Positions 3,655-63,800 of a stretch of 64,000 nucleotides of DNA are shown here, one piece after another. The notes below the pieces were generated by a model. It was not told the origin of the DNA, ran no database searches, and saw only the letters and a program-made list of their open reading frames with translations. The DNA comes from a bacterium (GTDB lineage: Bacteria; UBA8248). A program made the translations under genes and the position numbers. Location of the stretch: NCBI GenBank assembly GCA_965213685.1, contig CBDBZY010000064.1, positions 160,001 through 224,000 on the forward strand. Direction: 5' to 3'. How positions within the stretch are numbered: the first letter of the stretch is position 1; every line of letters begins with the position of its first letter.

Positions 3655-4053
3655 GTACATGAAATAACATGTGCATAGCACACCAGCTAGAAAGAGTCAA
3701 AGAAAGTTAAAAGAAAGGTGAATTAAGGCCATAACCCCCTCTACGTATACATGTAACACAATGAGCACAAGACACCTGGATGCCCAGCCTTGAGAACTGG
3801 GGCGGTGGGTTGAAGATCTTTTATGGCGCCAACTCTCCAAGTGCTGTCTTGAACTCACATACACACAGACACAGACATGAACAACAAAAACAGCCTCAAG
3901 GCTTAGAAAAATAGCTCAGAGCAATTTAACACACCACAGCCTCTAGGCTTAGAAAATAACTTTGACATACAGTAGCCTCTAAGCTTAGAAAAATCTAAAT
4001 TGGAAAACAACTAGAACAGCCTCAAGGTTTAGAAAAATAAATTTAACACACCA
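3655..4053 (-). mobile_element. Solo 3'-terminal repeat (pLTR-like) of Penelope-like family 1; twister copy with a 10-nt deletion (similar copy at 39680-40078)
   Basis: Near-identical to 31862-32269; lacks ccacacaccc within the twister region. Confidence 0.75.
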
Positions 4054-20150: not shown

Positions 20151-20237
20151 GGCCTCCCCCTTGGCAGAGTGGTTATGCATTTCGTCTGGTAAACGGATGA
20201 ATGTGGGTTCGAATCCTGCAGTGGGAGCCGGTTTTTT
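20151..20237 (+). repeat. tRNA-like pseudogene or SINE head (anticodon loop CTGGTAA, Thr-like)
   Basis: A box tggcagagtgg, anticodon arm ttcgt-ctggtaa-acgga, B box ggttcgaatcc, then TTTTTT; acceptor stem is imperfect. Confidence 0.55.
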
Positions 20238-27368: not shown

Positions 27369-29069
27369 CTAAAACCTTCTATGACAGTTACATTTACTAT
27401 CAACCACTTTTGATGGCCTTCTATCATGTATGGATATGCAACCTATGTCTGTAGCACTTTTGTTTACCGACTGAACAAAGTCTTTTAGCTCTTGTTTCAA
27501 CACTGGTACAAGGTCAGTGTGCTGGTCAGATATATCAGTTGTTTCTTTAGGATCAGCTACCACATCATAAAGATTGACACTCTGTATGTTTCCTTTATTG
27601 TACTTAACAACAAGTTTTTGTGAGTCTCGTAATACTGCACCATAGAAAGATGAGTATAAATCTCCCTTTTTAATGTGAAAGGCAAAAGCAATTGAGCCAT
27701 TGCGATGATTGACATCTCCTTTGAGAAATGGCAGAATAGAGACACCGTCTATTGGTCGATCTTGAGGAGGATCAATGCCAAGGATATCACACACAGTCGG
27801 TAGCAGGTCATTTGTCACCACAGGATAATCGGACTTTCGATTGGCTTTAATCACTGCTGGCCATTCTAATATTGCAGGCACTCGAATACCACCTTCAAAC
27901 ACTGTCCCTTTCTCTCCTCTCAAACCAGCTGTAGAGCCTGGAGTGCCTTTCTGTGGGCCATTGTCACTTGAGAACCACACAAATGTGTTGTTCTTAATGC
28001 CATATGTTTCCAGTAAACGTCTGACTCTCCCTATTGCTTGGTCCAGTTGCGATATAGCTCCATAGTAATGGGTAACATATCCTGAGTAACCTTGTTTTCT
28101 GTACATAGTGTAGTAGGGATCAAGAGCATAGTACCGGTAATGCACGTCATGAAATGCAAGTATAACAAAAAAGGGATTTTCACTAGAATGCGATTCTTGA
28201 AGATATTTCTCAAACATGTCCACAATAAAATCTGAATCTCCAATTATGGAGTCGTTGTAGGCTTGCAATTTTTCTGACTCCTTATCCATGTAGTGATAGG
28301 CTTTGCAGGCGTCTTGTCCATAGAATCTCTTCTGAACAGTGCAACTGAAGTGTTTTGAGCATCGGCAGTTTGGTGCCACTGAGGATGTGTCTCTTTCAGT
28401 TACTAACCACTGGTCAAAACCATGCATGCCAGGATGGGACACAGGCCACTTCTTGTTACCCCCTTCAATAACTTTCAAATCACCAACATGCCATTTCCCA
28501 AATATGGCAGTTTTGTAGCCTTCATTCTTCAGAAGTTCAGGCAGTGTTACTTCAGAGGTAGGTAGAGGCATAGAACAGGGGCATTTGCCATCATTACATG
28601 GATTACCCAGATCTGCGTGCCAGATACAGTATCGATTGTGGTTACGTCCTGTCAATAGAGTGCCTCTGGTTGGTGAGCAAACGGGACCTCCCGAATAAAA
28701 CCTCGTTAGGAGGACACTGTTTGGTCCTCGGGCCATTTGGTTGAGATTTGGTGTCTTAGCCTTTCCTCCATTATACTCCACGTCACCATAGCCCAGGTCA
28801 TCAGCCAATAAGTACAGAATATTTGGATGTTGCAATGGATTCTTGTGTCTGTTAAGTTGTGAATTTTTGTCCTCTATAGGAAATCTAAATTGTTTCTCCA
28901 CATTAGCTGATGTCATACTTGTGTTTGAAATCTTGTCTTCCTTACTGTCTACTCTTTTCATTGGAGTAACGCCATTGACATCTCCTAGTGCGCTGTACAA
29001 CACAGATACTAAGATACTCACCAACACTGCCGCTACTACTATTGCCACTCTGAAATCTCCCACTTTCAT
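27369..29069 (-). CDS. Arylsulfatase, intronless; paralog 2
   Basis: Same motifs as paralog 1, intact ORF, likely start MKVGDFR at 29069. Confidence 0.93.
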   Translation of the reverse strand: MKVGDFRVAIVVAAVLVSILVSVLYSALGDVNGVTPMKRVDSKEDKISNTSMTSANVEKQFRFPIEDKNSQLNRHKNPLQHPNILYLLADDLGYGDVEYNGGKAKTPNLNQMARGPNSVLLTRFYSGGPVCSPTRGTLLTGRNHNRYCIWHADLGNPCNDGKCPCSMPLPTSEVTLPELLKNEGYKTAIFGKWHVGDLKVIEGGNKKWPVSHPGMHGFDQWLVTERDTSSVAPNCRCSKHFSCTVQKRFYGQDACKAYHYMDKESEKLQAYNDSIIGDSDFIVDMFEKYLQESHSSENPFFVILAFHDVHYRYYALDPYYTMYRKQGYSGYVTHYYGAISQLDQAIGRVRRLLETYGIKNNTFVWFSSDNGPQKGTPGSTAGLRGEKGTVFEGGIRVPAILEWPAVIKANRKSDYPVVTNDLLPTVCDILGIDPPQDRPIDGVSILPFLKGDVNHRNGSIAFAFHIKKGDLYSSFYGAVLRDSQKLVVKYNKGNIQSVNLYDVVADPKETTDISDQHTDLVPVLKQELKDFVQSVNKSATDIGCISIHDRRPSKVVDSKCNCHRRF

Positions 29070-29377
29070 AGTTTGGTGAGGAGACACACTTGCAGCTGTA
29101 GTACAGAAGGAAGGAACAATGGTAGGAAGTGATCTCTCTACATAAGCAGGGTATACATATACACAAACACAGCCTTGCTGTGGGCCGTGTATAAGCACAA
29201 GACATACACGCCCACTGCAAAAATTCCATGGCTATTTTAACCATGGTTTTCTCAGTTGCACATTTGTTTAACACTGGACACTGCAAATATGCAGGAAATT
29301 CATCTTAAGAAGTGTGGGAGGATTGAGAAACTAAATGACAGGTTTTAGTTCATTAAGCATGACATACATTGTACATG

Positions 29378-30251
29378 AAAATTCATACTTATAGCACACC
29401 ACAATCCTAGGGACTGCAAGAAAGAAAGAGGGCTAACAAATGGCTACTAGGGCTACGGTAGGGCAGGGCTAACAAGACACAAAAGACAACACAAGTACAC
29501 CACCAAGTCACAACAATCCACAACCACACAACAACAAAGTTAAGCCCTAACAGAAAGGTTGCAGGGGCCAGAATTTAAAAAAACTTAGCAATAGAAAGTT
29601 TAAAAAACGCAAGGCCCAAAAAGTTAAAAAATGTGTAGCAGTAGAAAGGTTAAAAAGAAGGGACCAAAAGTTTAAAAATGTAGCAGTAGAAAGGTTAAAA
29701 AGAAGGGGCCAAAAGTTAAAAACTTTAAAATAGAGTTAAAAACATTGTTCATAAGTTAAAAACATTAGTGGAAAGGTTAAAAACTTATTAGCAAAGGGTA
29801 AGCTTAAAATGAGACAATGTGGACACTAGAAGCCTTGCCTTGAGAGCAAGGTTTGGTGGGTTAAAGATCTTTTATAGCCGACTAACTCTCCCCACTCTTC
29901 CAGTGTCCACACAAGGCAAACACACACACACACACCCATACACAACAATAACAACAGCTAACATACCTTATCAAAAGACAGTCCATACACTCAAACCGAA
30001 TATAGGAACTACTCACAAGAATGAAAGGATAGTAGAAAGTCCACAGATACAGTAGCCACAGATGGCATTTGGCTAACAATGGGTTTGCAACTATGTATTC
30101 CTTTGGGTAACATGTTTCGTCAGGCGACTAAGGCCACAAACTGGCAGGCAAATACCTACAAAAACATGCTGCTTCAAAGTTGCATTAAACTTAGAAAAGA
30201 TACTTTGATGTTTCTGTGAAAACTACATGTACAATGTACAGAAATACAAAA
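29378..30251 (-). mobile_element. 5'-truncated Penelope-like element, family 2 (ORF C-terminus plus 3' UTR)
   Basis: Absent from the paralogous site at ~2080; flanked by ATACA(T/A)TGTACATG. 30091-30222 encodes FSQKHQSIFSKFNATLKQHVFVGICLPVCGLSRLTKHVTQRNT*, homologous to the family-1 C-terminus FTKSHASIFFKFGYSVRKHTEEGICLPANDGFLSRNVCLRS*. ~45-bp tandem repeats at 29550-29800. Confidence 0.8.
29819..29910 (-). ncRNA. Twister ribozyme candidate, type-P5 permutation (family 2)
   Basis: P5 GUGGACACUGGAAG/CUUCUAGUGUCCAC; P2 UGGG/CCCA; G-A then T1 GAG/CUC; U^AA site; T2 CC/GG; P4 CCUUG/CAAGG. Confidence 0.72.
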
Positions 30252-31973
30252 ATACAATGTACATGTAATTGTAAGCATCCATAATGGACTGTAGCTACAG
30301 TGTCATGGCCAGGCCTTGCGAGAGCTCAGTATGTAGAACAGCTACACTTAGTGAGACTAGAAGACTTTGATAATACTTACAGTGAGTCAGATTAGCTTTG
30401 TGGCCTGCTGTCGAGTGTGTCCAATTTTGGGTGTATACAGTACTTCATTAAGTCTGTACACACATACACACAGCTAATAGCACGAAAGCAACTAGATGCT
30501 TTGAACTTTTTAAAAAGCATTATACACAATGCGTTCATATATTTGACTATTAAACGGTCACTACAAATGCGAGTACTCTTGGTTTAATCTATTTCATTTT
30601 TGCATGGACTCTATTTGCCTTACATTTTCACTACATTTCACGTCTGTAGTTATTCTGATGTCATATTGTTTGGGTTGAAGTTGTCACCACACTAGTAGTG
30701 GTATGTTGTTCAACTTCATTTTAATTGAGTTGTGAGAAATCATATTAGTATGTTTGACAAAATACCACAGTTTTTGGATAAGTAGTATGTTGTGCTGCAA
30801 GTTGTGTGTTGATCGTTGAACTAAATTCTAGAAACATGTTTGAAAGATGTAGGGACGGCTGTGCCAAAAACCACAGAAACTAGGTGTAGGGATGGCAGTG
30901 TGCAGGCAAGACATGTTATACAAAGACTACACAAGTAACCCCATCCCTACATCATTTTTTATGCCTGATAGGATTTTGCTGGCTATGCATGCCATTAGGT
31001 ATTGAGAACAGCAGTTTGAAGCAAAAAATGTAGGGATGGGGTTACTTGTGTAGTCTTTGTATAACATGTCTTGCCTGCACATCCCTACACCTAGTTTCTG
31101 TGGTTTTTGGCACAGCCATCCCTACATCTTTCAACATTTAAAAAAATGTTTTTAATACTTGTTTGTATCCTTTTTCCTGGCAATAGTTCACTAAAATGTA
31201 TTCTGTTCTTGCAAGCTTCTTTCAGAATCCCTCGAACAAATCATAACAGCCACTGCTACCCATCAGGAACAGGGTAGAAAGGGGCTTAACCGGAAGGAGC
31301 TTGACCACCATCACGCCATTTTGAAGTTGGGGGGCTGAGCCCCTCCAAAAAGTCCTGAGCTAGAGTGACTACTTCACTACATGTATCTAACTGGCTAACT
31401 CATACCCGCTACATTAACGTTTTTGTACAATAGAAAGACGCTGCTCAAACCTCTCTCAAATCAGCGACAACGCCAGCCTAAAATTAATAGGCGTGGCTTC
31501 GCGAGGCCGTTCTCGCTAGGTGCAGAGAAAAAGCCACACCCGAAATTACAGGTCCAACCCTTACGTCACTGTGGTGCTGTAATTCAAGGGAAGGAATGTT
31601 GTGAAGACGAAGAGGAATACAATTGACCTTATGCAGTGAAATGAATACACTAAGTCTCTTGAACAGAGATCCAGTTACAGTGACAGTTGAATAATCACTG
31701 ACCAGGTGAAAAAGGCGTCCAGCGTGAGAGTAGAACCAAGGTGTGGTGACAGCAAGCAAGAACTCGATGCTACACTCTTAGCATGCTAGCAGCCCTTAGG
31801 AGTAGGCTGGACCCTGCCATGTTTACCGTCTCTTTCGATACTCTTAGCCATCCTCATTTAGTACATGAAATAACATGTGCATGGCACACCAGCTAGAAAG
31901 AGTCAAAGAAAGTTAAAAGAAAGGTGAATTAAGGCCATAACCCCCTATACGTATACATGTAACACAATGAGCA

Positions 31974-32067
31974 CAAGACACCTGGATGCCCAGCCTTGAG
32001 AACTGGGGCGGTGGGTTGAAGATCTTTTATGGCGCCAACTCTCCCCACACACCCAAGTGCTGTCTTG
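31974..32067 (-). ncRNA. Twister ribozyme candidate, type-P5 (family 1, 3' UTR)
   Basis: P5 CACUUGGGUG/CAUCCAGGUG; UGGG-G-A-GAG; C^AA-CCCA-CC; P4 CCCAG/CUGGG enclosing UUCUCAAGG. Confidence 0.7.
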
Positions 32068-32099
32068 AGCTCACATATACACAGACACAGACATGAACA

Positions 32100-32330
32100 C
32101 CAAAAACAGCCTCAAGGCTTAGAAAAATAGCTCAGAGCAATTTAACACACCACAGCCTCTAGGCTTAAAAAATAACTTTGACATACAGTAGCCTCTAAGC
32201 TTAGAAAAATCTAAATTGAAAAACAACTAGAACAGCCTCAAGGCTTAGAAAAATAGATTTAACACACCACAGCCTCTAGGCTTAGAGAATAACTCTCACA
32301 TACAGTAGCCTCTAAGCTTAGAAAAGTAGA
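32100..32330. repeat. Tandem subrepeats (agcctc(a/t)aggcttagaaaa) in the family-1 3' UTR
   Basis: Six subunits forming a ~120-bp higher-order duplication. Confidence 0.75.
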
Positions 32331-33161
32331 AACCTTCTACAAAACTACAAGTACACAATATATACACAAAATTATGTACAGTAAAAAGAAAGTAACCATG
32401 AAGACACTGCTCACCTTTAAACAATCTGCTAGCAGCAGCAAATGCTCACAAATGAGCCCTTGAGGTCCTGTCATACGGTTTGGTTACTATCTCCACTATA
32501 ATCCATACATCCCACTTACAAGCTTACAAGGTCAAGGTTGTGATATGTACATGTACATGTAAACAGGATTACGAACGTAGACAGACGTTACGGCTCAAGA
32601 AACCATCATTGGCTGGCAAGCAAATTCCCTCTTCGGTGTGTTTACGTACACTGTACCCAAATTTAAAGAAAATACTTGCATGTGATTTTGTAAACCTTTT
32701 AAATGCCACACATAGTCCTGAGTACCAAAACCCCTGTCTAATGAGTTTTTGTGTAAGCTTGTAGTGCCTTTCTTTAAACTGTACAAAAGTACTACATATT
32801 CTACCAATACGTACTAGTTGGGAAATATATACTCCATACGCTGGTTTAGCAGGGATATTTGAGCTCAAATGAGGGAAATTTATAACGTCAAATTGAAAAC
32901 TATCCCTTTTGTCATAAACCGTAGTAGAGTATTTCCCATTGTTTATTGTAATAAGTACATCTAAGTACGACAATGTCGTGGGACTCTCTGTAGTATTTTT
33001 AAGCTGAAGTTCTGGGGGACATATGTCAGCAATTGCCCTTTCAAACCACCTGTTGTTAAGCGTCAGCAAATCATCGATATATCTCATTGTGTTATTAAAC
33101 TGCTTTGCCAATATTATGTTGTTCTTTAGTAGGGTCTTCATGTACCCATACTCATAATAAA

Positions 33162-35480
33162 AAAGTATGAAAAACATTTTCAAAAAATGTATAGGGATGT
33201 AGGGATGGCCGTGCCAAACACTACAGAAACTAGGTGTAGGGATGGCAGTGTGCAGGGAAGACATGTTATACAAAGACTACACAACTAACCCCATCCCTAC
33301 ATCTATTTTTTTTATATCTGAAATCATTCTGCGAGTTATGCTACAAGATTACTGGGAAGAGCAATTTTTGAGCCAAAAAAAAGATGTAGGGATGGGGTTA
33401 GTTGTGTAGTCTTTGTATAACATGTCTTCCCTGCACACTGCCATCCCTACACCTAGTTTCTGTAGTTTTTGGCACGGCCATCCCTACATCCCTATACATT
33501 TTTTGAAAATGTTTTTCATACTTGTTTGCATCCCTTTTTTTGCACAGGGGTACCATTAAAAAGTATTTTTCTTGCCACTGAAGCTTCTTTCAGAGTCCAG
33601 CAAACAAATCAGTGGTCATAACAGCCATTGCTAAGGCGGGTAGGGAGGGGCTTGAACACCATCATTTCTGAAGTTGGGGGCTGAGCCCCTCTAAAAATTC
33701 TTGAGCTAGAGTAGCTACATATGTACCTCACTGTATCTAACTGGCCAACTCATCCCCGCTACATAATAGTATAGTGAAGTAAGACGCTGTTCGAACGCGC
33801 CATCAGATATGAAGCAGCCTTTGCTATGTCTCGCGAACCTATAATTAATAGGCGTGGCTTCGCGAGGCCCGCCCTCACGTGCTTACCGTTTGCGCCACGT
33901 GACAGTAACTATTACAAAATGGTTTCCCAAATATGGGGAGTTGTCGGGGACTTCTAGTTTCTGCCCATTTGGGAACGTACTAAGAGTTTTATTAGCACAG
34001 ATCGTACTTGGTAGTGATTACAGTGGATCCGTGAAAGAACTACGGTGATTACTTCAGCCAGTTTTGAGATACGTTAGTCTAAAGAAATCTCTTAAGGGAG
34101 GGCGAGTCATGATTGCGTTCTTCGTCAATTACTCTACCGTCGCTTTCCCCCTACATTTACCAACGCTAAAACGACAGCAATTCTTTGGCGCGGTTGCAAA
34201 TTCGCTGGGAAAAATTCATATTTCCCGCTACCGTTGGACGTGCGGCGCTGTGTGGCGCCAACCGGTGAAGAGGTGGATGCTCGCCAAAGGGGAGTGAACT
34301 AGTTTATGCGCAATGGGTTGCTCGAATCTTGGCTTGCTTCTTTACGGCAGAATTTGCTACCGTTTTTCTAAATTCTGCAGCACGAAGAAAACGATTATAT
34401 GTCTAGAAAGAAAGATTTAGCACGGATTTTTAAAGCAAACTTAGATAGCCAACATGCTTAGTAGTCATCCACCGAAGTTTCGTCTCTGCAGCATTAGCCG
34501 TTATTGGCAAATGTTTTTTCTATAATTAGCGATATGCATATTGCGTAAATTTTATAATTCTATGAACCGACATATCACGCAAAACTATGTTATTTCGCTA
34601 ACAGGCATCATTAGGAGAATACAATAAAACATAAATCAGGCAAAATCATATCTTAGGGTCGTCCTGCCTTAAGGGAGGGCGAGTCATGATTGCGTTCTTC
34701 GTCAATTACTCTACCGTCGCTTTCCCCCTACATTTACCAACGCTAAAACGACAGCAATTCTTTGGCGCGGTTGCAAATTCGCTGGGAAAAATTCATATTT
34801 CCCGCTACCGTTGGACGTGCGGCGCTATGTGGCGCCAACCGGTGAAGAGGTGGATGCTCGCCAAAGGGGAGTGAACTAATTTATGCGCAATGGGTTGCTC
34901 GAGGCTTGGCTTGCTACTTTACGGCAGAATTTGCTACCATTTTTCTAAATTCTGCAGTACGAAGAAAACGATTATATGTCTAGAAAGAAAGATTTAGCAC
35001 GGATTTTTAAAGCAAACTTAGATAGCCAACATGCTTAGTAATCATCCACCGAAGTTTCGTCTCTGCAGCATTAGCCCGTATTGGCAAAATTTTTTTCTAT
35101 AATTAGCGATATGCATATTGCGTAACTTTTATAATTCTATGAACCGACATATCACGCAAAACTACGTTATTTCGCTAACAGGCATCATTAGGAGAATACA
35201 ATAAAAACAAATCAGGCAAAATCATGTCTTAGGGTCGTCCTGCCTTAAGAAGAAGAAGAAGAAGAATAGGAAGAAAGACAAAACGACCTTTGGAGAGTTT
35301 TCTGGTAGTAAGTCAAGGGATGCATTTTAGCTACTTGGGGGGTATTGTTGGGTAGAGAACCACTGGAATAGAATAGCTAGGGGTCCAGAAAGGCTTAGAA
35401 CGCGAGCGTTCGCGAGTTAAGAAAGCTTTCCTATGTACACGCACTATGGGCGTGTCGGCGCCATCCCTACATAGATCTGA
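33162..35480 (+). mobile_element. Helentron/DINE-like element inserted into the Naiad RT domain
   Basis: Removing it rejoins LANLFL|FYYEY in frame with no duplication; palindrome 33162-33525; 3' hairpin collapsed to agatctg. Confidence 0.8.
34096..35244 (+). mobile_element. Tandem pair of Kolobok-like MITE A (34096-34668, 34673-35244)
   Basis: TTAA-GGGAGGGCGA...TCGTCCTGCC-TTAA twice, sharing the central TTAA; equivalent empty site ctcTTAAgaagaag at ~47337. Confidence 0.8.
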
Positions 35481-37258
35481 TAAGAACAAGTTGGCTAGTA
35501 ATGGTGCACAATCTGTGCCCATAGGAATGCCCACACCTTGCCTATATACTCTATTCCCTACACTAATGTATATATTATCTATAAGGTATTCCACAAGTTT
35601 GATAAGAATCTCTTCTCTTATGCTGTATTTAGAAGACGATGTAGATGGAGTATCAGACCAAATTGCTGTACCTCTTTTATTGGCAATCAGGAAAACACTG
35701 TCTCTCACTCTATATGCTTCTTTAATGAGAGTAGTCAATGCATCTTTAAGAGATGTGTGTGGAATACTTGTATATAAAGTAGAAAAATCATAGCTATCAA
35801 AATGTTTGGCAGTAGAAAAATAATTAACATTATTTAAAGGTGAAAGGACCTGCTGGGAGTTATCAATAATCCAGAAGCAATTGACTCCTGTTCTGGAGTA
35901 AATACCGCTACAGTATTGTTTGAAGTGTGATACTACCTTACTCAAGCATGTAGTAAGTAGCTTTGACAGCTGCTTCATACTACATTTGTTAGAAGCAGCT
36001 ATGAATCTTGTGCCATACGGCTGTTTATGTAATTTAGGTAGCCAATAAAATGATGGCAAATGTCGAAAATCAGGTTCTACTTCAATTCTATTAATTGCCA
36101 TAAATTTCAGGAGGTCATTTACTACATTCATACAACCTCTAGCTTCACGATCATACGTACAAGTAGTTGTGAGCTCCTTGAGAACAACCTGTAGGTAGTA
36201 CCTTTTACACACTACTACAACATTGTTTGCTGCTTTGTCTGCTGGTACCAAAACATATTTAGACTGTAGCTCTTGCAAATAATCTAAATGCTTTCCAGGT
36301 TTCAGAACATGTTGCCTCCTTCTATTTATATGCTTTCTTCAGAGTAACCTGATTCGCTGTTCAATGCACTCATTAACCTTATGTTCCCATTCATTCAATA
36401 CTCTTAAATCTACCCTTTCCTTTCTTGACCACTCACGTTTGTATGATGCTACAGCCTCTCTACATATCTCCATATTTACTCTCCAATCAATGCCATTCTG
36501 TTCCCTATAAGATGGTCCCTTCATAATCAATGAGCGAAGTTTGGCCTCTCTAATAATATTCAGGTCACCCGTAACATGTCCAGCAGGCTCATAACAGTAT
36601 TTAGATGAAGAACATTCACAATGCATATCCTCAGTACCAACTTCAAAGTCCAATTCCTCCACTACTCTTTTGTGATTAAATAGCTTGCCTGAAATGGTTT
36701 TGGTATAACTCTTGGAGGTTTGCGATGGCTCAAAAAGGTAGGTACCGTATCCCTGACACACTTACTGTTGAGTATTTTAGGCAATTGTATCATTTCCATC
36801 CCTTTATTGTGGTACTGCACGATCATATATCTGGAATCCTTTTTCGAATATCTACCTCTACTATACGCATCATTTAAAGCCATATGCGAGGTTCCTTTCT
36901 TAAAGGCAATCAAATCCTTCACTAGTACCACAATGCGATGAGGTAAATCATGCACAGTAATCCACCTGTTAACAATATTCCATAATGCCTGCATGCACTT
37001 CCTAGGTAAACTGAGGACCAGACTCCTTAAACTAAAACAAAAACTGTAAGACTTATAATCTGATAACAAGGTCTCCAGTTGTACAGAAAAATCATCTAGA
37101 TCAATCTTTCTCCTACTCCTCTGTGGTTTACGTTTTCTGAACCTCCGTGGCTGTTTATTAAATAGTGCGTTCACAACTACTGCCTCCTTACATTTTGAAA
37201 TATTGCCAACCTTTCTGACGTTATCATTAAGACCATATGGGTAAATAGTACAAAGCTC

Positions 37259-37817
37259 CAAGCCCGTAGGCAGCAAATGGAGTGGGTGGGTGCTTTCTTT
37301 GATTAAGTGGACCTTATGAAATAAGGCTATTAAACTTTACTCATTCAGAGAATGTTATATAATTATGTCAGTTCAAGTACTATAATACCGATGATATACA
37401 CTTTTCAAAGGTGGTGTACACTTAAAACAAAAAAAACCTGTTAAGTATCGTACACACAGACGTATATATGAGCAATGACTCCAATTCAAGCATCGTTTGT
37501 TCACGTACCCACACAGTACAGTAAGCGTGAGCTAGCCGTATTCCGTGAACGTGCATGCGTGAGCGAAAGGGGGAGGGGAGGAAGAGAAAATTGTGCATGA
37601 GCGTTCATCGAATACGGTCTGCATCTGGTTCACGAGACTAACATGTGGGCAAACATATTACTCACTTCTTTGAAAGTAGGCATGACACGCTCGCTCCGCA
37701 CGCATCAACGCTGAGTTATGCAACAACGTACATTAACTAAGAATGATCAAGGTGGACCTCTGTGCAAACGGGGTGGGTGCGTACGCACCCTACGCACCCC
37801 CCCTGCCTACGGGCTTG
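37259..37817. mobile_element. hAT-like MITE interrupting the Naiad GIY-YIG domain
   Basis: Perfect 15-bp TIR CAAGCCCGTAGGCAG; flanks aagctc/aagctt; protein reads EDFWCR|ELCTIYPYGLN across it. Confidence 0.75.
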
Positions 37818-38683
37818 AAGCTTCTACACCAAAAGTCCTCTCTCTCCAATCTTTTAGTGCTTAAACTATTCCTGTCACTAGATGTAATTTCTTCAATAGG
37901 CATAATAAGAATATCATCTTCACAATGGCCATCTGAACTAAAATGTTTGTACAGGTCAACTTTCTCAGCCGATTTCTATGATTATTCAACCTACTCCTCA
38001 ATTTCTGACTAGTTTCACCCACATATTGAACACCACACCTCTTACATGAAATGAGGTATATAACATTAGCCGTGTCACAATTCATTGAAGAGTTGGAACT
38101 GGTAACAGCATAACTCTTCTGTGTAACATTACTCACAAAAGTACTCCCTTGAGACACATGCCTACAAGTCTTACAACGTGAAGAACCACAAGTACAAACA
38201 GTACAAACAGCACAATCTACTGTATTGGTCTGTGTATGAATATCAGTTGTATCCCGTCCTGTATCAACAGGCTTTAAGGAAACAGCATTATTAGCACAAA
38301 CCGTGACATACAAACGGGTTGAGACTGCCTCTAAAGGACCCAGTCCAAGGTCCACCACCTTGGTTTGCCGGGCTAGCAGCCGCCCCCTATTAAACGACGT
38401 GAAGGCTGATGTGACTATAATGAAGAAAGAAGAAGAGGAAGAAAAGAAGAAAGACAAAAAGACAGAAAGGCAAGGTCCCAAAGAGCTATAAATGGAACGT
38501 GCATGGAGCCGCGACCAGGGTATGACACTGGTACTACTGCTTCCCCATACATCCTAGCTCCACAGCACCCAGAGAAAAAGCCAGTGAAAGCTAAAGCATA
38601 AAATATGCTTGATTCTAGTTTCAACACAGTACAGCCTGCCAGGGTAATAAAACCACCAAGCACAGGTCTGAATGTTGAAAGTA

Positions 38684-39000
38684 TACATGAAATAACATGT
38701 GCATAGCACACCAGCTAGAAAGAGTCAAAGAAAGTTAAAAGAAAGGTGAATTAAGGCCATAACCCCCTATACGTATACATGTAACACAATGAGCACAAGA
38801 CACCTGGATGCCCAGCCTTGAGAACTGGGGCGGTGGGTTGAAGATCTTTTATTGCGCCAACTCTCCCCACACACCCAAGTGCTGTCTTGAACTCACATAT
38901 ACACAGACACAGACATGAACAACAAAAACAGCTTCAAGGCTTTGAAAAATAGCTCAGAGCAATTTAACACACCACAGCCTCTAGGCTTAGAAAATAACTT
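38684..39000 (-). repeat. Upstream pseudo-LTR of the family-1 Naiad (direct repeat of its 3' end)
   Basis: Matches 31862-32179, starting at the same TACATGAAA terminus. Confidence 0.8.
38796..38889 (-). ncRNA. Twister ribozyme candidate in the upstream pLTR (core intact)
   Basis: Same as 31974-32067 apart from one linker substitution. Confidence 0.7.
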
Positions 39001-41200
39001 CAATAGTTCACTAAAATGTATTCTGTTCTTGCAAGCTTCTTTCAGAATCCCTCGAACAAATCATAACAGCCACTGCTACCCATCAGGAACAGAGTAGAAA
39101 GGGGCTTAACCCGAAGGAGCTTGACCACCATCACGCCATTTTGAAGTTGGGGGGCTGAGCCCCTCCAAATAGTCCTGAGCTAGAGTGACTACTTCACTAC
39201 ATGTATGTAACTGGCTAACTCATACCCGCTACATTAACGTTTTTGTACAATAGAAAGACGTTGCTCAAACCTCTCTCAAATCAGCGACAATGCCAGCCTA
39301 AAATTAATAGGCGTGGCTTCGCGAGGCCGTTCTCGCTAGGTGCAGAGAAAAAGCCGCACCCGAAATTACAGGTCCAACCCTTACGTCACTGTGGTGCTGT
39401 AATTCAAGGAAAGGAATGTTGTGAAGACAAAGAGGAATACAATTGACCTTATGCAGTGAAATGAATACACTAAGTCTCTTGAACAGAGATCCAGTTACAG
39501 TGACAGTTGAATAATCACTGACCAGGTGAAAAAGGCGTCCAGCGTGAGAGTAGAACCAAGGTGTGGTGACAGTAAGCAAGAATTCGATGCTACACTCCTA
39601 GCATGCTAGCAGCCCTTGGGAGTAGGCTGGACCCTGCCATGTTTACCTCTCTTTCGATACTCTTAGCCATCCTCATTTAGTACATGAAATAACATGTGCA
39701 TAGCACACCAGCTAGAAAGAGTCAAAGAAAGTTAAAAGAAAGGTAAATTAAGGCCATAACCCCCTATACATATACATGTAACACAATGAGCACAAGACAC
39801 CTGGATGCCCAGCCTTGAGAACTGGGGCGGTGGGTTGAAGATCTTTTATGGCGCCAACTCTCCAAGTGCTGTCTTGAACTCACATATACACAGACACAGA
39901 CATGAACAACAAAAACAGCCTCAAGACTTAGAAAAATAGCTCAGAGCAATTTAACACACCACAGCCTCTAGGCTTAGAAAATAACTTTGACATACAGTAG
40001 CCTCTAAGCTTAGAAAAATCTAAATTGGAAAACAACTAGAACAGCCTCAAGGTTTAGAAAAATAAATTTAACACACCAGCGTATACTGCGCATTGCGCAG
40101 CATTGCGCGATATCAAGTGACCCTCGATGGGCTGGTATAGTACAGTACTAGTACTTGACTTGCTTACTACGTAATTTTCATTACTGCGCTTGCGTTGTTT
40201 GTTCTAAAACGGCAGTTACTACACAGGAGGTTGGAAGCGGCGACGAAATCATGCGACTTAAATCCCACACATAAACAATAATTATTACTATACCGTCAAT
40301 GAGCATATTTAGCATATATACCAGTCGAGTTGGTAGGTTTGTGAAAGCGCTCCTGTAGCTATGCGTGTCAGGCAGGTATCGTCGCTATCTTCTACACTGG
40401 CCCTAGGCGCTACCTGTTTACATTGCTGAAGCTCTGTCGTGCGTTGTGCCGTAACTCGCCAATTACGCAACTGAGATGACCATAGCAAGGTTAAGATCAC
40501 GCTTTTTTTTGCTATGTACACATAAACGTAGCCTTACTGTGGGCTGTATAAGCATGGGACATACATACAAACGTATCCTTACTGTTGATTTCTCCTGTCT
40601 CAGCTCAGCTTAGTTTAAGAAATGGGCAGTCTCCATAGTGTATGTTCCAGGTGGTAGAGTGCTGTTCACTGAGTGACACCATTACCCCTATTGTGTGGGC
40701 AGGGCCATTACCTCAGTACAGTGAAACCTCTGTATAGTGTTCACTCTGTAAAGCAGCCACCTCATTATTACAGCCACCTACTCAGGTCACTTGGGATATA
40801 ATGCCCAATATTTACACCTCTATTAAACAGCCACCTCTCTATTACAGCTACAAATTTATGGCCCATAGGTGACCACTCTAGGGAGGTTCCACTGCAATGG
40901 CTTAAAACTGTGCACAAAACCTGCTGGTTGGCAAAAAGTGCATGGAGTGCTAGTCAGCTAGTACTAGTGTATCGCCTTGTCAGTGGCAGCACCATGAGTA
41001 ATGGTTATGTCAACCCATTGGACTACCAGGCCAGGAAGAGATACTATGAAAAGCTGGAAACTGTTGGCCTGTCTCTTAATGTTGAACCATATAGTGCTAG
41101 TGATAGATTCCATTCTGACACGACCCTTTGGCCAAAGATCGAATACAGTTTAATACATTTCAGGCCTGGCACCTACGTTCAGGAACAACTTCTCTCATAT

Positions 41201-50600: not shown

Positions 50601-52203
50601 GGGGACGCTACTTCGCTCTTCCACCAGGGACAGCAAGTTCGAGTAGCTGTGGTGCGCCCTGGGGTGTCAAAAAACTTCGCGTGGCACTCAGACGCTGTAG
50701 AAAGGATGCTTTGGCATCATCAGTTGGAAACTTAAACGACCCTAAGACATGATTTTGCCTGATTTATGTTTTATTGTATTCTCCTAATGATGACTGTTAG
50801 CGAAATAACGTAGTTTTGCGTGATAAACTAGTTCACTCCCCTTTGGCGAGCATCCACCTCTTCATCGGTTGGCGCCACACAGCGCCGCACGTCCAACGGT
50901 AGCGGGAAATATGAATTTTTTCCCAGCGAATTTGCAACCGCGCCAAAGAATTGCTGTCGTTTTAGGGTTTTGTAAACGTAGGGAGAAAGCGACGGTAGAG
51001 TAATTGACGAAGAACGCAATCATGACTCGCCCTCCCTTAAGGGTGGTCGGACATGGATACTGTGCGGCTCTAAAGGAATGCGCAGATCTGGGCTTCGTGG
51101 TTAATTAGTGGAAGCCAAATGCAACAGCTGCACGCATTAGCGTAATAGATCTGGCCCGTCTAAGGTATGCAGCGTGCATAACTCTGTAAAACTCCGTAGC
51201 GCTTTTCGTGATCGGGACGCCCTTCCGTTGGCGTCATCGTGGGCAGGTACCGCAGACCGTAACGTGGAGTTTTTCCGAATTGAACGCTCCAAATTCGAGA
51301 AAAGTTCAAAAACCCGTGCTTGCGTACTAGATACAGTGAAAACGGCCACGTTAATGGCTAGCGCTTGCTCGAATAGCTCTGGTGCCTGAGTTTCAGGGAG
51401 GTAGGTAAATCGGTTAAGAAGTTTTATAGAGAAAGAGTCTAAGACTTTACCGCCGTAACTCTCGGTGACTAGGTAAGCTGGAGCTGTGAAACTTGGTATA
51501 CGAATTGCAGTGTCTGCAGTGTCTATAAGGGCCCAAACACGACATTGGTAGGTACCGTACTTTGCGAGATATAATAGCATAGCAACCACATGCCTCATTA
51601 ATGTTCATGATATCCGACCACCCCCCGAAAGAGGGTCTGGCAACTATACTCGACCCTATGACGTGGCCGTCCGGCATGTGGGATGGCCAATAACAGCGCA
51701 GCATTCTTCAATTCTACGTTCTTCAGCGCAGCATTCTTCAATTCTACGTTCCATAGTAGATAGTTGCCTGTTCAACAAGTAACGCCACCCAATCATTTAT
51801 TTTTACTTGTTACCTGCATTTGTAGTCTTTGTATGCCCTGTCTTGCCTATATTTTATACACAGCAAAAATAGAATTGTTGTTTTAACAAAACAAGGCCAA
51901 GGCACAGCTCACAACAGCTGTTACAACTATATTTGTAGTACAGTTTTACATGGCCCTGCAGCAAATATAACAAAGGTCTTTATCATAGGAACAATGTCAT
52001 TTTTGCTGTGTACACAGCTAAAAAGAGATGGACAATTGAATGTTATTTCAGGTACTAGCACTCACCACATCATTCAGTTTTCTTGCCACTATTTCTCTTT
52101 TAAACTCTTAACGACAGAATAGGTGAACAATGAATCAATGCTGGTGTCAGTTTATGCTCAGTGGATTAAAATATGTATTGTCATACTTCTTAATCATCCC
52201 TAC

Positions 52204-60800: not shown

Positions 60801-63800
60801 TTTCAGGGAAGAAATCAGGCACACAACTTCCTCTTCAGAGATGTCAATTAATGATATATCTGAGGTGGAGTCACTCAGATGATGAGATGGAGAATGTTGA
60901 AGAGGAGAATCTGATTTGTTAAGGCTCTCACCAAAGAAAACGTTCAGTACTTCAGCTTTCTCAGCGTCTTCCGACACCAACGTATTATCAGAAACCAGTG
61001 TAGGAATATGACTTGAAACAGTGTTCGAAGTGTTCACTATTTTCCAAAAACTTCTGAGGATCATTTGCCATTCTGGAGAGGTTACTGAAAAAAACAGCTC
61101 TGGATGACCTAATGAGTTTGACCACTCGATTTCTCATCTCTTTATACTTTTTCCAAGCAGATACACTCTGCGATATCTTGAACTTACGATACAAGTGATC
61201 TCTTTTAATAGCACACATAATATTTTTGTTAATCCAAAGCAAATAACGCCGGCATTGCTGTTTAGCTCGTGGAACACACTGTTGCATTATGTCTAAAAAG
61301 ATCTTTTTCCAGTTTTGCCATGACTCATTTAAATTACTCGTCAAGATTATTTTCCAGTCAGTGTTTCTTATCAATGCACATGCTTTGCCGTAGCCCACAC
61401 TAGTCTCATCAGTTAGACTCTCTAAGAGAAAGAAAGTGGAAGAAAAAGTGGACTCTTGTGGGACTCGAACCTAGGACTCTCAACTTTCTATATTCTGACG
61501 CTCTTCCGACTTCTGACAGCAGGCAAAGTCGATACCATATCCTGACAACAGTCTCTGCTGATCTGCAATGAAGCTCCCTGCTGCCCCAACAGACAAGATG
61601 GTTGTTAAAGTCTAGGGCAACCAACCTAGCCTAGCCTAGTTAGTCTGAGGGGCAGTGGCTGAAGCAGGAGACCCATTAAGGGTCTGTTTTTTTAAAAGTA
61701 TAGACACATGATAACCCCTGGTTGGTGTATGATGGGGGAAAACAAACATGACAAACAAACAGCCTGCCTGCTGGCTGGGCTCTTTAGCTCTGACTCAGTC
61801 GGTAGAATGTCAGCATATAAAGCTGAGATTCGTGGGTTCAGGTCCTGCAGGAGTCCACTTTTTCTTCCACTTTCTTTCCATCACTCAGATGATACGGCAG
61901 TGAGTTTTTCCTCCCTCATACATAACCAGGCTGGGCTGGGTTTGGTTGCCTCAGACTTTATTAACCACTTTGTCGATTGAGGGGTTATCATGTGTCTCTC
62001 TAAGAGAGTCTGACATGTCATAGGGCATTCGTGTTGCTTAGTCAGGCCTGGTGTACTTGTAGTAACCAGAGGAGGTTGGAAGCGGTTACGTGATCGCCCA
62101 AGCCGTGTACATTATGCCCATTGAGAAGAGTTTGACATTATTTCAGGGTGACGAAAGGGAAGCAGACTGTACCATACTACGAAAAATGCTTTCAGGCCAT
62201 CAACCCCTTCCAACCCCTGGGTAATTGGCGAGTTACGGCACAACGCACGACAGAGCTTCAGCAATGTAAACAGGTAGCGCCTAGGGCCAGTGTAGAAGAT
62301 AGCGACGATACCTGCCTGACACGCATAGCTACAGGAGCGCTTTCACAAACCTACCAACTCGGCTGGTATATATGCTAAATATGCTCATTGACGGTATAGT
62401 AATTGTTTATGTGTGGGATTTAAGTCACATGATTTCGTCGCCGCTTCCAACCTCCTGTGTAGTAACTGCCGTTCTAGCACAAACAACGCAAGCGCAGTAA
62501 TGAAAATTACGTAGTAAGCAAGTCAAGTACTAGTACTGTACTATACTAGCCCATCGAGGGTCACGTGATATCGCGCAATGCTGCGCAATGCGCAGTATAC
62601 GCTGGTGTGTTAAATTTATTTTTCTAAGCCTTGAGGCTGTTCTAGTTGTTTTCCAATTTAGATTTTTCTAAGCTTAGAGGCTACTGTATGTCAAAGTTAT
62701 TTTCTAAGCCTAGAGGCTGTGGTGTGATAAATTGCTCTGAGCTATTTTTCTAAGCCTTGAGGCTGTTTTTGTTGTTAATGTCTGTGTCTGTGTATATGTG
62801 AGTTCAAGACAACACTTGGGTGTATGGGAAGAGTTGGCGCCATAAAAGATCTTCAACCCACCGCCCCAGTTCTCAAGGCTGGGCATCCAGGTGTCTTGTG
62901 CTCATTGTGTTACATGTATACGTATAGGGGGTTATGGCCTTAATTCACCTTTCTTTTAACTTTCTTTGACTCTTTCTAGCTGGTGTGCTATGCACATATT
63001 ATTTCATGTACTAAAGGATGAGGATGGCTAAGAGTATCGAAAGAGACGGTAAACATGGCAGGGTCCAGCCTACTCCCAAGGGCTGCTAGCATGCTAAGAG
63101 TGTAGCATCGAGTTCTTGCTTACTGTCACCACACCTTGGTTCTACTCTCACACTGGACGCCTTTTTCACCTGGTCAGTGATTATTCAACTGTCACTGTAA
63201 CTGGATCTCTGTTCAAGAGACTTAGTGTATTCATTTCACTGCATAAGGTCAATTGTATTCCTCTTCGTCTTCACAACATTCCTTCCCTTGAATTACAGCA
63301 CCACAGTGACGTAAGGGTTGGACCTGTAATTTCGGGTGCGGCTTTTTCTCTGCACCTAGCAAGAACGGCCTCGCGAAGCCACGCCTATTAATTTTAGGCT
63401 GGCGTTGTCGCTGATTTGAGAGAGGTTTGAGCAGCGTCTTTCTATTGTACAAAAACGTTAATGTAGCGGGTATGAGTTAGCCAGTTAGACACATGTAGTG
63501 AAGTAGTCACTCTAGCTCAGGACTTTTTGGAGGGGCTCAGCCCCCCAACTTCAAAATGGCGTGATGGTGGTCAAGCTCCTTCCAGTTAAGCCCCTTTCTA
63601 CTCTGTTCCTGATGGGTAGCAGTGGCTGTTATGATTTGTTCGAGGGATTCTGAAAGAAGCTTGCAAGAACAGAATACATTTTAGTGAACTATTGCCAGGA
63701 AAAAGGATACAAACAAGTATTAAAAACATTTTTTTAAATGTTGAAAGATGTAGGGATGGCTGTGCCAAAAACCACAGAAACTAGGTGTAGGGATGTGCAG

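What the first reader, a model, noticed from the sequence alone, without database searches (positions are those of the whole stretch)
29819..38889. Naiad-type Penelope retroelements carrying twister ribozymes in their terminal repeats
Seen: two Penelope-like families with divergent ORF C-termini each have a ~92-nt sense-strand motif in the 3' UTR (29819-29910; 31974-32067; again in the upstream pLTR at 38796-38889). It maps base by base on the twister core: Y^AA site, P2 CCCA/UGGG, G-A, T1 CUC/GAG, T2 CC/GG and a P4 loop ending UCUCAAGG (one extra nucleotide versus the canonical loop). P4 covaries (CCUUG/CAAGG vs CCCAG/CUGGG) and P5 differs in sequence yet pairs in both, while the surrounding UTRs do not align. 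Established: pLTRs of Penelope-like elements typically carry hammerhead ribozymes. Inference: twister fills that role here, cutting the transcript in both repeats (predicted sites 29863^29862 and 32018^32017) to release a unit-length RNA. I cannot check whether this pairing has already been reported.
Basis: partly seen in the sequence, partly recalled or inferred. Interest (0 to 1): 0.88.

Follow-up and report, generated by a model that had tools for sequence, protein, structure and literature searches.

The report
Twister-like ribozyme in Naiad retroelements
A conserved ~92-base RNA fold in the terminal repeats of Naiad-type Penelope-like retroelements, a group reported to lack the usual hammerhead ribozyme, matches the twister self-cleaving ribozyme in all core features except its first helix, but cleavage itself is untested.

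Summary
The motif lies on the minus (ORF-sense) strand at the stated coordinates. There are six copies in the window and 46 covariance-model matches in the assembly, in five sequence families.

Helices P5, P4 and P2 covary strongly: 95.4% of cells are paired against 79.6% in shuffles (0 of 500 reach the observed value), and 21 of 35 pairs change on both sides. G·U outnumbers A·C by 50 to 7, so the structure belongs to the sense RNA.

The core lines up position by position with Rfam's Twister-P5 consensus: Y^AA, a 4-bp P2, G-A, T1, T2 and the P4 loop. Both pseudoknots are changed in a compensatory way.

A generic twister descriptor hits 13 places in the assembly, and 11 of them are this family. 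Shuffled contigs give 0 to 2 hits.

Against membership, no Rfam twister model scores the motif at all. There is no cis P1; two palindromes sit in its place. Loop L4 has one extra base.

The carrier has an N-terminal GIY-YIG domain, a CxC motif and a DKA motif, so it is Naiad-type. Naiads are reported to lack canonical hammerheads (PMC8557442). I found no paper linking twister to Penelope-like elements. Cleavage is inferred, not shown.

The parts
31974..32067 (-). Family B motif in the 3' UTR / downstream pseudo-LTR; whole twister-like unit, with P5 as the open stem
   Evidence: Sequence. Model R1 scores it 99.4 bits. It passes the strict descriptor.
32050..32067 (-). P5 5' strand (pairs with 31974-31988)
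   Evidence: 13 of 14 P5 pairs change on both sides across families.
32044..32047 (-). P2 3' strand UGGG
   Evidence: It pairs with CCCA at 32012-32015. 2 of 4 pairs change on both sides: C-G to U-A in family D, and C-G to G.U in family E.
32042..32043 (-). Conserved G-A (position of the twister general-base G)
   Evidence: Invariant in the 13-sequence seed. It aligns with the G-A of Rfam's Twister-P5 consensus. The role of the G is recalled from the twister literature and from PMC8501958.
32039..32041 (-). T1 strand GAG (pairs with CUC at 31998-32000 in loop L4)
   Evidence: 98.5% of cells paired; no change on both sides within this genome. Rfam's consensus has GgG/CcC here.
32030..32037 (-). 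Variable perfect palindrome UGGCGCCA, in the place of the P1 hairpin
   Evidence: 98% paired down to the central pair, and 3 of 5 pairs change on both sides. RNAcofold predicts an intermolecular duplex.
32019..32026 (-). Conserved palindrome AAGAUCUU immediately 5' of the cut
   Evidence: Invariant in four families. Family D has AAAGA-C-UCUUU instead.
32016..32018 (-). Predicted cleavage site C^AA (cut between 32018 and 32017)
   Evidence: The AA is invariant. It aligns with the UAA of Rfam's consensus, next to P2. Cleavage was not tested.
32010..32015 (-). P2 5' strand CCCA followed by T2 strand CC
   Evidence: The CC is complementary to the GG that ends L4. Rfam's consensus has GC/GC here.
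31989..32007 (-). P4 hairpin CCCAG / UUCUCAAGG / CUGGG
   Evidence: P4 is 100% paired and 3 of 5 pairs change on both sides. UCUCAAGG is invariant.
29819..29910 (-). Family A motif; predicted cut U29863^A29862
   Evidence: R1 scores it 104.7 bits. MFE z-score is -5.06, with 0 of 200 shuffles as stable.
30139..30240 (-). Degenerate RT C-terminus of the 5'-truncated family A element, 229 nt upstream of motif A
   Evidence: tblastn with residues 189-222 of the B element's RT: 41% identity, E 4.7e-6, one in-frame stop.
38796..38889 (-). Family B motif in the upstream pseudo-LTR
   Evidence: R1 scores it 92.6 bits. 38684-39000 is 97.8% identical to 31862-32178.
39787..39876 (-). Third upstream B copy, lacking the P2 3' strand (deletion)
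   Evidence: 59.4 bits. It lies in the repeat 39001-40078, which matches 31181-32269.
3762..3851 (-). B copy with the same deletion
   Evidence: 59.4 bits.
62805..62904 (+). B copy with A in place of the conserved G of G-A
   Evidence: row L051. R1 scores it 94.7 bits.
37861..38553 (-). N-terminal GIY-YIG endonuclease part of the B element's ORF
   Evidence: Pfam PF01541: 26.2 bits against a cut-off of 22.6.
36339..36761 (-). Linker with a CxC motif (HCECSS)
   Evidence: Translation. The CxC motif is diagnostic for Naiad/Chlamys according to PMC8557442.
35331..36338 (-). RT, N-terminal part, with DKA motif
   Evidence: RVT_1 scores 20.2 bits, below the cut-off of 29.6, E 5.3e-4. PADKAAN is seen in the translation.
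32569..33276 (-). RT, C-terminal part (RYIDD); separated from the N-terminal part by about 2 kb of inserted repeats
   Evidence: Translation; repeats.

Best explanation
The motif is a divergent twister-class self-cleaving ribozyme in the type-P5 permutation. It sits about 240-540 nt 3' of the RT stop and about 156 nt 5' of the element's 3' end, so it is present in both pseudo-LTRs of Naiad-type Penelope-like elements.

Shown here:
- The sense-strand RNA forms P5, P2 and P4.
- The loop of P4 can form both twister pseudoknots.
- The nucleotides that twister uses for catalysis (the A-A after the cut and the G-A after P2) are invariant across five families whose helices have diverged.

Inferred:
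- The RNA cuts itself at Y^AA (29863^29862, 32018^32017, and 38840^38839 in the upstream repeat).
- It thereby takes the role that hammerheads play in other Penelope-like elements, processing read-through or tandem transcripts.

Also inferred: the helix next to the cut (P1) is not formed in cis. Two palindromes replace it, so the active form is probably a dimer of two motifs. These could come from two RNAs or from the two repeats of one transcript, as proposed for the palindromic helix III of metazoan Penelope hammerheads.
For: 1. Position-by-position fit to Rfam's Twister-P5 consensus, as printed. Rfam has cGCA-GA-GgG-[20-nt P1 hairpin]-UAA-UGCg-GC-Aaga-P4(UCcCAAGC). The motif has UGGG-GA-GAG-[20-22 nt]-YAA-CCCA-CC-(2-3 nt)-P4(N-UCUCAAGG). 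Both pseudoknots differ from the consensus on both strands at once: GgG/CcC becomes GAG/CUC, and GC/GC becomes CC/GG. Which loop bases pair with which is recalled twister knowledge. It is consistent with the two pseudoknots of 2 and 3 bp described in PMC11662667.

2. Covariation on 22 distinct copies. I used the 23 best of 40 loci; 17 decayed or truncated copies were left out.
- 95.4% of cells paired, against 79.6 +/- 0.9% in shuffles (0 of 500 reach it).
- Partners slid by 1-3 columns give 33-44%.
- 21 of 35 pairs change on both sides: P5 13 of 14, P4 3 of 5, P2 2 of 4.
- The 13-sequence seed gives the same picture.

3. Strand: 50 G.U cells against 7 A.C cells.

4. A generic type-P5 twister descriptor fixes only GA, AA, AA and the complementarities. 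It gives 13 hits in the whole assembly on both strands, and 11 are this family. Four block-shuffles of the four host contigs give 0, 1, 2 and 0 hits.

5. Link to the element:
- 5 of 8 loci with a Naiad RT C-terminus have the motif 243-543 nt downstream on the same strand.
- Family A has an RT remnant 229 nt upstream.
- RT C-terminal pieces of the other families are 49-62% identical to family B, while the motif core is kept.

6. Tolerance known from experiment. P1 is dispensable, and P2, P4 and L2 imperfections are tolerated. Pseudoknots and catalytic residues are the sensitive parts (PMC11662667). C^AA, A^AA and G^AA sites cleave, and twisters with an imperfect P1 work in a retrotransposon (PMC8501958).

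7. The palindrome stays fully self-complementary while its sequence changes (helix 4). RNAcofold favours a dimer by 8-19 kcal/mol in 8 of 8 sequences tested.
Against: - No Rfam twister model scores the motif:
  - nothing at gathering threshold in the window;
  - nothing at E<=10 on 2.7 kb or on 111 bases;
  - Twister-P5 over the assembly peaks at 18.1 bits elsewhere;
  - twister-P1 gives no match at E<=1.
- There is no cis P1. Ten to twelve conserved bases lie between the palindromic hairpin and the cut.
- L4 has one extra base.
- T1 and T2 never change on both sides within this genome, so their pairing rests on comparison with the Rfam consensus.
- Family E, the most numerous, has a C.U at the fourth P2 pair and fails the strict descriptor.
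- Minimum-energy folds pair GAGA (general base plus T1 strand) with UCUU just 5' of the cut, 7 bp in family D. This would compete with the active fold.
- The single-sequence fold of copy B is not unusually stable: z = -1.26, with 24 of 200 shuffles as good.
- Genomic copies end about 156 nt beyond the cut, and their 5' ends do not pile up exactly at it. The template for integration is therefore not simply the cut RNA.
- My descriptor allowed up to 2 extra loop bases after I had seen the motif.
- All copies come from one host assembly.
Confidence: 0.6

Rival explanations
1. The RNA has a twister-derived fold but no longer cleaves, or cleaves negligibly. It is kept as a structured 3' UTR element that the element's RT or endonuclease recognises for target-primed reverse transcription, or that dimerises two RNAs through its palindromes.
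For: - The motif lies in the 3' UTR, about 156 nt from the 3' end where reverse transcription would start.
- Copies extend beyond the cut, so uncut RNA is the template.
- P1 is missing.
- The palindromes and the GAGA/UCUU alternative pairing are conserved although twister catalysis does not need them.
- In R2 elements the element's protein binds the HDV-like ribozyme fold (review PMC6765202).
- Metazoan Penelope hammerheads cleave poorly in vitro (PMC4209133).
Against: Every position that twister needs for chemistry is invariant across five families, while the helices drift. A mere protein-binding scaffold would not be expected to keep exactly this set. Binding and cleavage do not exclude each other.
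Confidence: 0.24
2. It is a conserved three-helix RNA element (P5, P2 and P4 plus a palindrome) that is unrelated to twister. The likeness of the single-stranded parts is coincidence.
For: - There is no Rfam hit of any kind.
- T1 and T2 show no covariation inside the data set.
- A relaxed descriptor is unspecific: 28 other hits, including a SINE-like repeat.
Against: - The strict descriptor finds almost only this family: 11 of 13 hits, against 0-2 in shuffles.
- The order, spacing and identity of G-A, YAA, loop AA and both loop complementarities all agree with the consensus.
- Even the 20-nt length of the P1 slot agrees.
Confidence: 0.12
3. The conserved features act at the DNA level. For example, the palindromes could serve as endonuclease or integration signals, or as cDNA hairpins. 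Under this reading the RNA fold is incidental.
For: Two perfect palindromes are conserved. Penelope-like elements form complex tandem and inverted insertions (PMC8557442).
Against: There are 50 G.U cells against 7 A.C cells in the helices. This is expected for RNA of one strand, not for duplex DNA signals. Covariation extends over 30 pairs outside the palindromes.
Confidence: 0.04

Closest known systems
Twister ribozyme, type P5 (Rfam RF02684, clan CL00120)
   Same: The order of elements is the same: P2 3' strand, G-A, T1, a 20-nt slot, N^AA, P2 5' strand, T2, linker, then P4 with a loop carrying T1', AA and T2'. P5 is the open stem. P2, P4 and P5 are supported by covariation.
   Different: - It scores below every reporting threshold of the Rfam model.
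- P1 is not a hairpin that flanks the cut; palindromes take its place.
- T1 is GAG/CUC and T2 is CC/GG.
- L4 has one extra 5' base.
- The junction between P5 and P2 is only 2 nt, with no base between P4 and P5.
Minimal and dimeric type-I hammerheads of Penelope-like elements (Cervera & de la Pena 2014, PMC4209133, passages read; Lunse et al. 2017, seen only as a reference in PMC6765202, because the paper itself is not held)
   Same: The location is the same: the pseudo-LTRs of the same retroelement class. The closed helix next to the cut is reduced to a short, palindromic element that can only become a stable helix between two copies.
   Different: The ribozyme class is unrelated (no CUGANGA/GAAA core; and the Rfam scans). 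The host clade, Naiad, is the one reported to lack canonical hammerheads (PMC8557442).
Twister 'T-variants' at the 5' end of Perere-3 (RTE) non-LTR retrotransposons of Schistosoma mansoni (Liu et al. 2021, PMC8501958, passages read). Truncated twisters in RTE elements are also mentioned in PMC7761336.
   Same: Both are twister cores with a non-canonical P1 that belong to a retrotransposon. The N^AA site takes any N.
   Different: - The T-variants are at the 5' end, so the cut defines the element's 5' terminus next to the target-site duplication.
- They are found upstream of the element's ORF, and their P1 is formed by the 5' and 3' ends of the ribozyme.
- They belong to non-LTR elements.
- Here the motif is 3' of the ORF, inside the repeat, in the P5 permutation, and in a Penelope-like element.
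HDV-like ribozymes of R2, L1Tc and other LINEs (review PMC6765202)
   Same: A self-cleaving fold is recruited by a retroelement for transcript processing, and may double as a protein-binding or translation element.
   Different: The fold is different, its position is at the 5' end, and the element class is different.

Membership tests
Twister ribozyme (type P5) | N^A-A cleavage-site nucleotides directly 5' of the P2 5' strand | tested here: met
   YAA (U, C or A at N-1) followed by CCCA, CCUA or GCC. The AA is invariant in the 13-sequence seed. It aligns to UAA-UGCg of the Rfam consensus.
Twister ribozyme (type P5) | P2 helix (about 4 bp) followed on its 3' strand by a conserved G-A | tested here: met
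   88.6% of cells paired, and 2 of 4 pairs change on both sides. G-A is invariant in the seed. Family E has only 3 pairs.
Twister ribozyme (type P5) | Pseudoknot T1 (3 bp) between L4 and the strand after G-A | tested here: inconclusive
   GAG/CUC is complementary in 98.5% of cells, but no change on both sides occurs within the data. It is compensatory only relative to Rfam's GgG/CcC.
Twister ribozyme (type P5) | Pseudoknot T2 (2 bp) between the end of L4 and the bases after the P2 5' strand | tested here: inconclusive
   CC/GG is complementary and invariant. It is compensatory only relative to Rfam's GC/GC.
Twister ribozyme (type P5) | P4 hairpin whose loop carries T1', A-A, T2' | tested here: met
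   P4 is 100% paired and 3 of 5 pairs change on both sides. The loop is N-UCUCAAGG, one base longer than Rfam's UCcCAAGC.
Twister ribozyme (type P5) | P1 helix flanking the cut (a closed hairpin in type P5) | tested here: not met
   No complementarity exists between the bases after GAG and those before Y^AA. The slot holds two palindromes instead. P1 is reported to be dispensable for cleavage (PMC11662667), so this lowers strict membership, not plausibility.
Twister ribozyme (type P5) | Score at or above Rfam's gathering threshold (37.6 bits for RF02684) | tested here: not met
   No match at all, even at E<=10. The genome-wide best is 18.1 bits at an unrelated place.
Twister ribozyme (type P5) | Site-specific self-cleavage giving 2',3'-cyclic phosphate and 5'-OH ends | not testable with these tools
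   No RNA run holds the stretch. The runs laid were contigs and show no ends.
Naiad clade of Penelope-like elements | GIY-YIG endonuclease N-terminal to the RT | tested here: met
   On the minus strand, GIY-YIG at 37861-38553 lies upstream of RVT_1 at 35331-36338.
Naiad clade of Penelope-like elements | CxC linker motif and DKA in place of DKG (criteria from PMC8557442) | tested here: met
   HCECSS in 36339-36761 and PADKAAN in 35331-36338.
Naiad clade of Penelope-like elements | Placement within Naiad in an RT phylogeny with reference elements | not tested
Naiad clade of Penelope-like elements | Pseudo-LTRs from partial tandem copies | tested here: met
   31181-32269 matches 39001-40078 at 96.9%. 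31862-32178 matches 38684-39000 at 97.8%.
Hammerhead ribozyme of Penelope-like elements | CUGANGA ... GAAA catalytic core | tested here: not met
   There is no hammerhead at gathering threshold in the window, and none at E<=10 in 29600-32300. The core is absent from the motif sequence.

The most novel reading that the evidence does not exclude
Naiad Penelope-like elements are not ribozyme-free. They carry a twister in place of the hammerhead. This twister has been reshaped like the Penelope hammerheads: the helix beside the cut is replaced by palindromes, so that cleavage needs two copies. That would mean two unrelated ribozyme classes converged on the same dimer-gated design in sister retroelement clades, which would argue that dimer-dependent self-cleavage is a core requirement of the Penelope life cycle. 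It would also mean that standard Rfam screens miss a whole population of eukaryotic twisters.
Probability: 0.3. Interest if true: 0.9.

Novelty: new variant of a known kind. Interest (0 to 1): 0.78.

Why it matters
Craig et al. 2021 (PMC8557442, passages read) report that Naiad and most Chlamys elements lack canonical hammerheads. They took this to show that a ribozyme is not needed for proliferation, and perhaps that hammerheads merely parasitise Penelope-like elements. A twister in the same place of the Naiad repeat would reverse that inference. It would make the role of self-cleavage in Penelope-like elements testable by comparing two ribozyme classes.

It would also be the first link of twister to this retroelement class. 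The known links are to RTE-type non-LTR elements (PMC8501958, PMC7761336). It would give a natural twister that lacks a cis P1 and may work as a dimer.

Six searches of the paper library found no report of it:
- 'twister ribozyme' + 'Penelope-like': 12 papers, none reporting it.
- 'Naiad' + 'Chlamys' + 'Penelope-like' + 'hammerhead': 4 papers held, 3 listed.
- 'twister' + 'retrotransposon' + 'ribozyme' + 'sponge': 6 papers.
- 'twister' + 'Naiad': 0 papers.
- 'twister' + 'pLTR': 1 paper, a review.
- 'twister' + 'Penelope' + 'GIY-YIG': 1 unrelated paper.

Subscription journals and supplements were not searchable.

Tried and rejected
Rfam:
- Whole window at gathering threshold: only a tRNA.
- E<=10 on 29600-32300 and on 29810-29920: only chance rows, none of them a ribozyme.
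- Twister-P5, twister-P1 and Twister-sister over the assembly: nothing at the motif.

Other collections:
- The pattern GAGTT..AAGATCTTNAA..CTCAAGG found 17 stretches in metagenome contigs and 3 in genome contigs. All are chance matches without P2, T2 or P4.
- The RT query found no relative in viral contigs.
- Model R1 found no match in 41 bacterial relatives of the assembly's bacterium. This is as expected if the motif belongs to the non-bacterial contigs.

Expression:
- No RNA holder was listed.
- The four runs laid were contigs. They gave no begin or end places at the motif and no information on cleavage.
- Runs labelled sponge metagenome hold small shares of the stretch. I did not lay them and draw no habitat conclusion from them.

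Cleavage footprint in genomic copies:
- 7 of 19 B-family alignments start between -20 and +14 of the cut.
- Three of these start 5' of the cut.
- E-family starts are spread from -130 to +29.
- I judged this inconclusive.

Relaxed descriptor (3-bp P2): 44 hits, 16 in the family and 28 others, among them a SINE-like repeat with an apparent T1 co-change. I judged this unspecific and did not use it.

Three of the 8 loci with a Naiad RT C-terminus have no motif, no hammerhead core and no palindrome within 1.2 kb downstream. They are probably truncated, and one of them belongs to a different family.

A cis P1 was sought by eye and by MFE folding and not found.

Papers and tools not available:
- Roth et al. 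2014 and Lunse et al. 2017 are not held.
- Supplements are closed. Supplementary files S1 and S2 of PMC8557442 list hammerhead-core annotations for Naiads and may bear on what is already known about their 3' UTRs.

Full report
WHERE THE WINDOW LIES. The window is part of a 1.6-Mb contig with 44% G+C. The assembly mixes contigs of about 65% G+C, which look bacterial, with contigs of 42-53% G+C. Forty-one relatives of the bacterium have genomes of 2-4.6 Mb and lack the motif. The contig carries a eukaryote-type sulfatase ORF and animal-type retroelements. I therefore treat it as host DNA of an unidentified animal.

THE OBSERVATION. The motif is on the minus strand at 29819-29910, 31974-32067 and 38796-38889, exactly as described. 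nhmmer and a covariance model built here find 46-47 copies on five host-like contigs. Six of them are in the window.

The copies fall into five sequence families, which I call A, A', B, D and E. Between families, similarity is confined to about -47..+43 around the predicted cut, within +/-700 nt.

THE CARRIER. The family B element runs on the minus strand from the upstream repeat, through ORF pieces, to the downstream repeat.
- GIY-YIG (PF01541, 26.2 bits) at 37861-38553.
- A CxC motif in 36339-36761.
- PADKAAN plus a weak RVT_1 match in 35331-36338.
- RYIDD in 32569-33276.

About 2 kb of inserted repeats splits the RT.

An N-terminal endonuclease, CxC, and DKA instead of DKG are the features that Craig et al. 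give for Naiads (PMC8557442, passages). I could not build an RT tree with reference elements.

The repeats are partial tandem copies. 31181-32269 matches 39001-40078, and 31862-32178 matches 38684-39000.

In the assembly, 5 of 8 loci with a Naiad RT C-terminus have the motif 243-543 nt downstream. The remaining three show nothing recognisable within 1.2 kb. Family A in the window is a 5'-truncated remnant with a degenerate RT C-terminus at 30139-30240. B-family copies end about 156 nt 3' of the predicted cut in 8 of 19 alignments.

THE FOLD. A seed of 13 sequences and a model-based alignment of the 23 best of 40 loci (17 decayed or truncated copies left out) support four helices. Results on 22 distinct sequences:
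- 95.4% of 761 cells form standard pairs, against 79.6 +/- 0.9% in shuffles (0 of 500 reach it).
- Sliding the partners by 1-3 columns gives 33-44%.
- 21 of 35 pairs change on both sides.
- By helix: P5 13 of 14, P4 3 of 5, P2 2 of 4, and the palindromic hairpin 3 of 5.

G.U cells outnumber A.C cells by 50 to 7. The structure therefore belongs to the ORF-sense RNA.

Minimum-energy folds recover P5, P2 and P4 in most families. Copy A is unusually stable (z = -5.06), copy B is not (z = -1.26).

IS IT A TWISTER? A weak, unrelated hit let me see Rfam's Twister-P5 consensus: cGCA-GAGgG-c[18]g-UAA-UGCg-GC-Aaga-cCG-GUCcCAAGCC-CGg. The motif reads UGGG-GAGAG-[20-22 nt]-YAA-CCCA-CC-[2-3 nt]-CCCAG-N-UCUCAAGG-CUGGG.

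Every element is in the same order and at nearly the same spacing. The slot for P1 even has the same length.

The two pseudoknots differ from the consensus on both strands at once. GgG/CcC becomes GAG/CUC, and GC/GC becomes CC/GG. Which loop bases pair with which strand is recalled knowledge of the twister structure. It agrees with the 2-bp and 3-bp pseudoknots described in PMC11662667.

I also wrote a generic descriptor. It fixes only G-A, A-A and A-A, and requires a 4-bp P2, a 3-bp T1, a 2-bp T2 and a P4 of 4-6 bp. It gives 13 hits in the whole assembly on both strands, and 11 are this family. Four block-shuffles of the four host contigs give 0, 1, 2 and 0 hits.

WHAT SPEAKS AGAINST MEMBERSHIP.
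- No Rfam twister model reports the motif at any threshold tried.
- T1 and T2 do not co-vary within this genome.
- L4 is one base longer than the consensus.
- Family E has only three good P2 pairs.
- Above all, there is no cis P1.

Experimental work reports that P1 is dispensable and that P2, P4 and L2 imperfections are tolerated. Pseudoknots and catalytic residues are the sensitive parts (PMC11662667). Twisters with an imperfect P1 and any base before ^AA cleave in vitro and in cells (PMC8501958). By those criteria the motif keeps what matters. I file it as a new variant, not as a plain member.

THE P1 SLOT. After GAG come four parts:
- UU;
- a perfect palindrome that differs between families but remains self-complementary down to its central pair (GGCGCC, GGCUAGCC, GGGCCC, GGUGCACC, GGUACC, AGCCGGCU);
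- AU or AA;
- a second palindrome, AAGAUCUU. It is conserved in four families and is a 5+1+5 quasi-palindrome in family D.

The cut follows directly.

A hairpin does not need a self-complementary loop, but an intermolecular duplex does. RNAcofold favours a dimer through the variable palindrome by 8-19 kcal/mol in 8 of 8 sequences.

Cervera and de la Pena describe the same design for helix III of metazoan Penelope hammerheads: a short stem with a palindromic loop, active only when two copies pair (PMC4209133).

I therefore propose that this twister is gated by pairing of two copies. This is inference. The minimum-energy folds also pair GAGA with the UCUU just 5' of the cut. That could be an inactive conformer, and I cannot decide between these readings.

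FUNCTION. By analogy with hammerheads in other Penelope-like elements, cuts in the upstream and downstream repeats would give a unit-length RNA. Nothing here shows it.
- No RNA run holds the stretch, and the runs laid were contigs.
- Genomic copies extend 156 nt beyond the cut.
- Their 5' ends cluster only loosely near it. In family B, 7 of 19 start within -20..+14. In family E they are spread.

The RNA used for integration is therefore not simply the cut product. The same puzzle is noted for hammerheads of this element class (PMC8557442).

NOVELTY. Naiads are described as lacking canonical hammerheads, and this was taken to mean that they do without a ribozyme (PMC8557442). Twisters are known in RTE-type non-LTR elements (PMC8501958; PMC7761336).

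Six full-text searches found no paper that links twister to Penelope-like or Naiad elements. Subscription journals and supplements could not be searched.

A canonical type-I hammerhead does occur elsewhere in the same assembly, so both ribozyme classes coexist in this host.

VERDICT.
- A twister-type fold is very likely (about 0.85).
- Self-cleavage at the predicted sites is likely but untested (about 0.6).
- Dependence on a dimer is plausible (about 0.3-0.4).

Noticed in passing
whole assembly; window = contig C64:160001-224000: The assembly mixes contigs of about 65% G+C with contigs of 42-53% G+C that carry animal-type retroelements. Forty-one relatives of the bacterium are 2-4.6 Mb, against 7.97 Mb here. 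About half of the assembly is therefore probably host DNA binned with a bacterium.
   Followed up: partly
27369-29231 (-): A 620-aa open frame with a full Sulfatase domain (171.5 bits) and SGSH_C. It is a host gene just 3' of motif A and not part of the retroelement.
   Followed up: partly
20155-20227 (+): A tRNA gene at 44.7 bits, the only Rfam match at gathering threshold in the window.
   Followed up: no
30803-31530: A very high-copy repeat inside the tail of the B repeat. Its word depth in public runs is hundreds of times that of its flanks, with many joints and loose ends. The assembly holds 100-200 blastn hits to it. Its identity is not determined.
   Followed up: no
34091-34673 and 34668-35249: A tandem duplication of about 583 bp (97% identical) within the roughly 2-kb insertion that splits the B element's RT. 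Related copies lie at 15053-15630 and 50816-51042.
   Followed up: no
29700-29818 (minus strand, just 3' of motif A): Four to five repeats of about 20 nt, each containing GTTTTTAAC, follow motif A directly. They may be part of the element's 3' tail.
   Followed up: no
assembly C56:57792-57836 (-) and C41:335872-335916 (-): Matches to Rfam Hammerhead_1: 37.5 bits (over the cut-off) and 29.9 bits. The host therefore also has canonical type-I hammerheads. The second lies about 120 bp from an inverted pair of truncated twister-like copies at C41:336034-336130.
   Followed up: no
assembly, e.g. C18:135476-135531, C18:566483-566542, C64:612968-613022: A SINE-like repeat with at least 11 copies and a tRNA-like head. 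Its tail (…CCCUGAUAAACAGGG) satisfies a relaxed twister descriptor, with an apparent co-change in the T1 positions between two subfamilies. I judged it chance and did not test it further.
   Followed up: partly
assembly C16:227127-227206, 252722-252803, 340984-341065: Three partial matches (90-95% identity) to the 3' half of the family D motif and its tail (+12..+93) lie on a 50% G+C contig. Whether that contig is from the same host was not checked.
   Followed up: no
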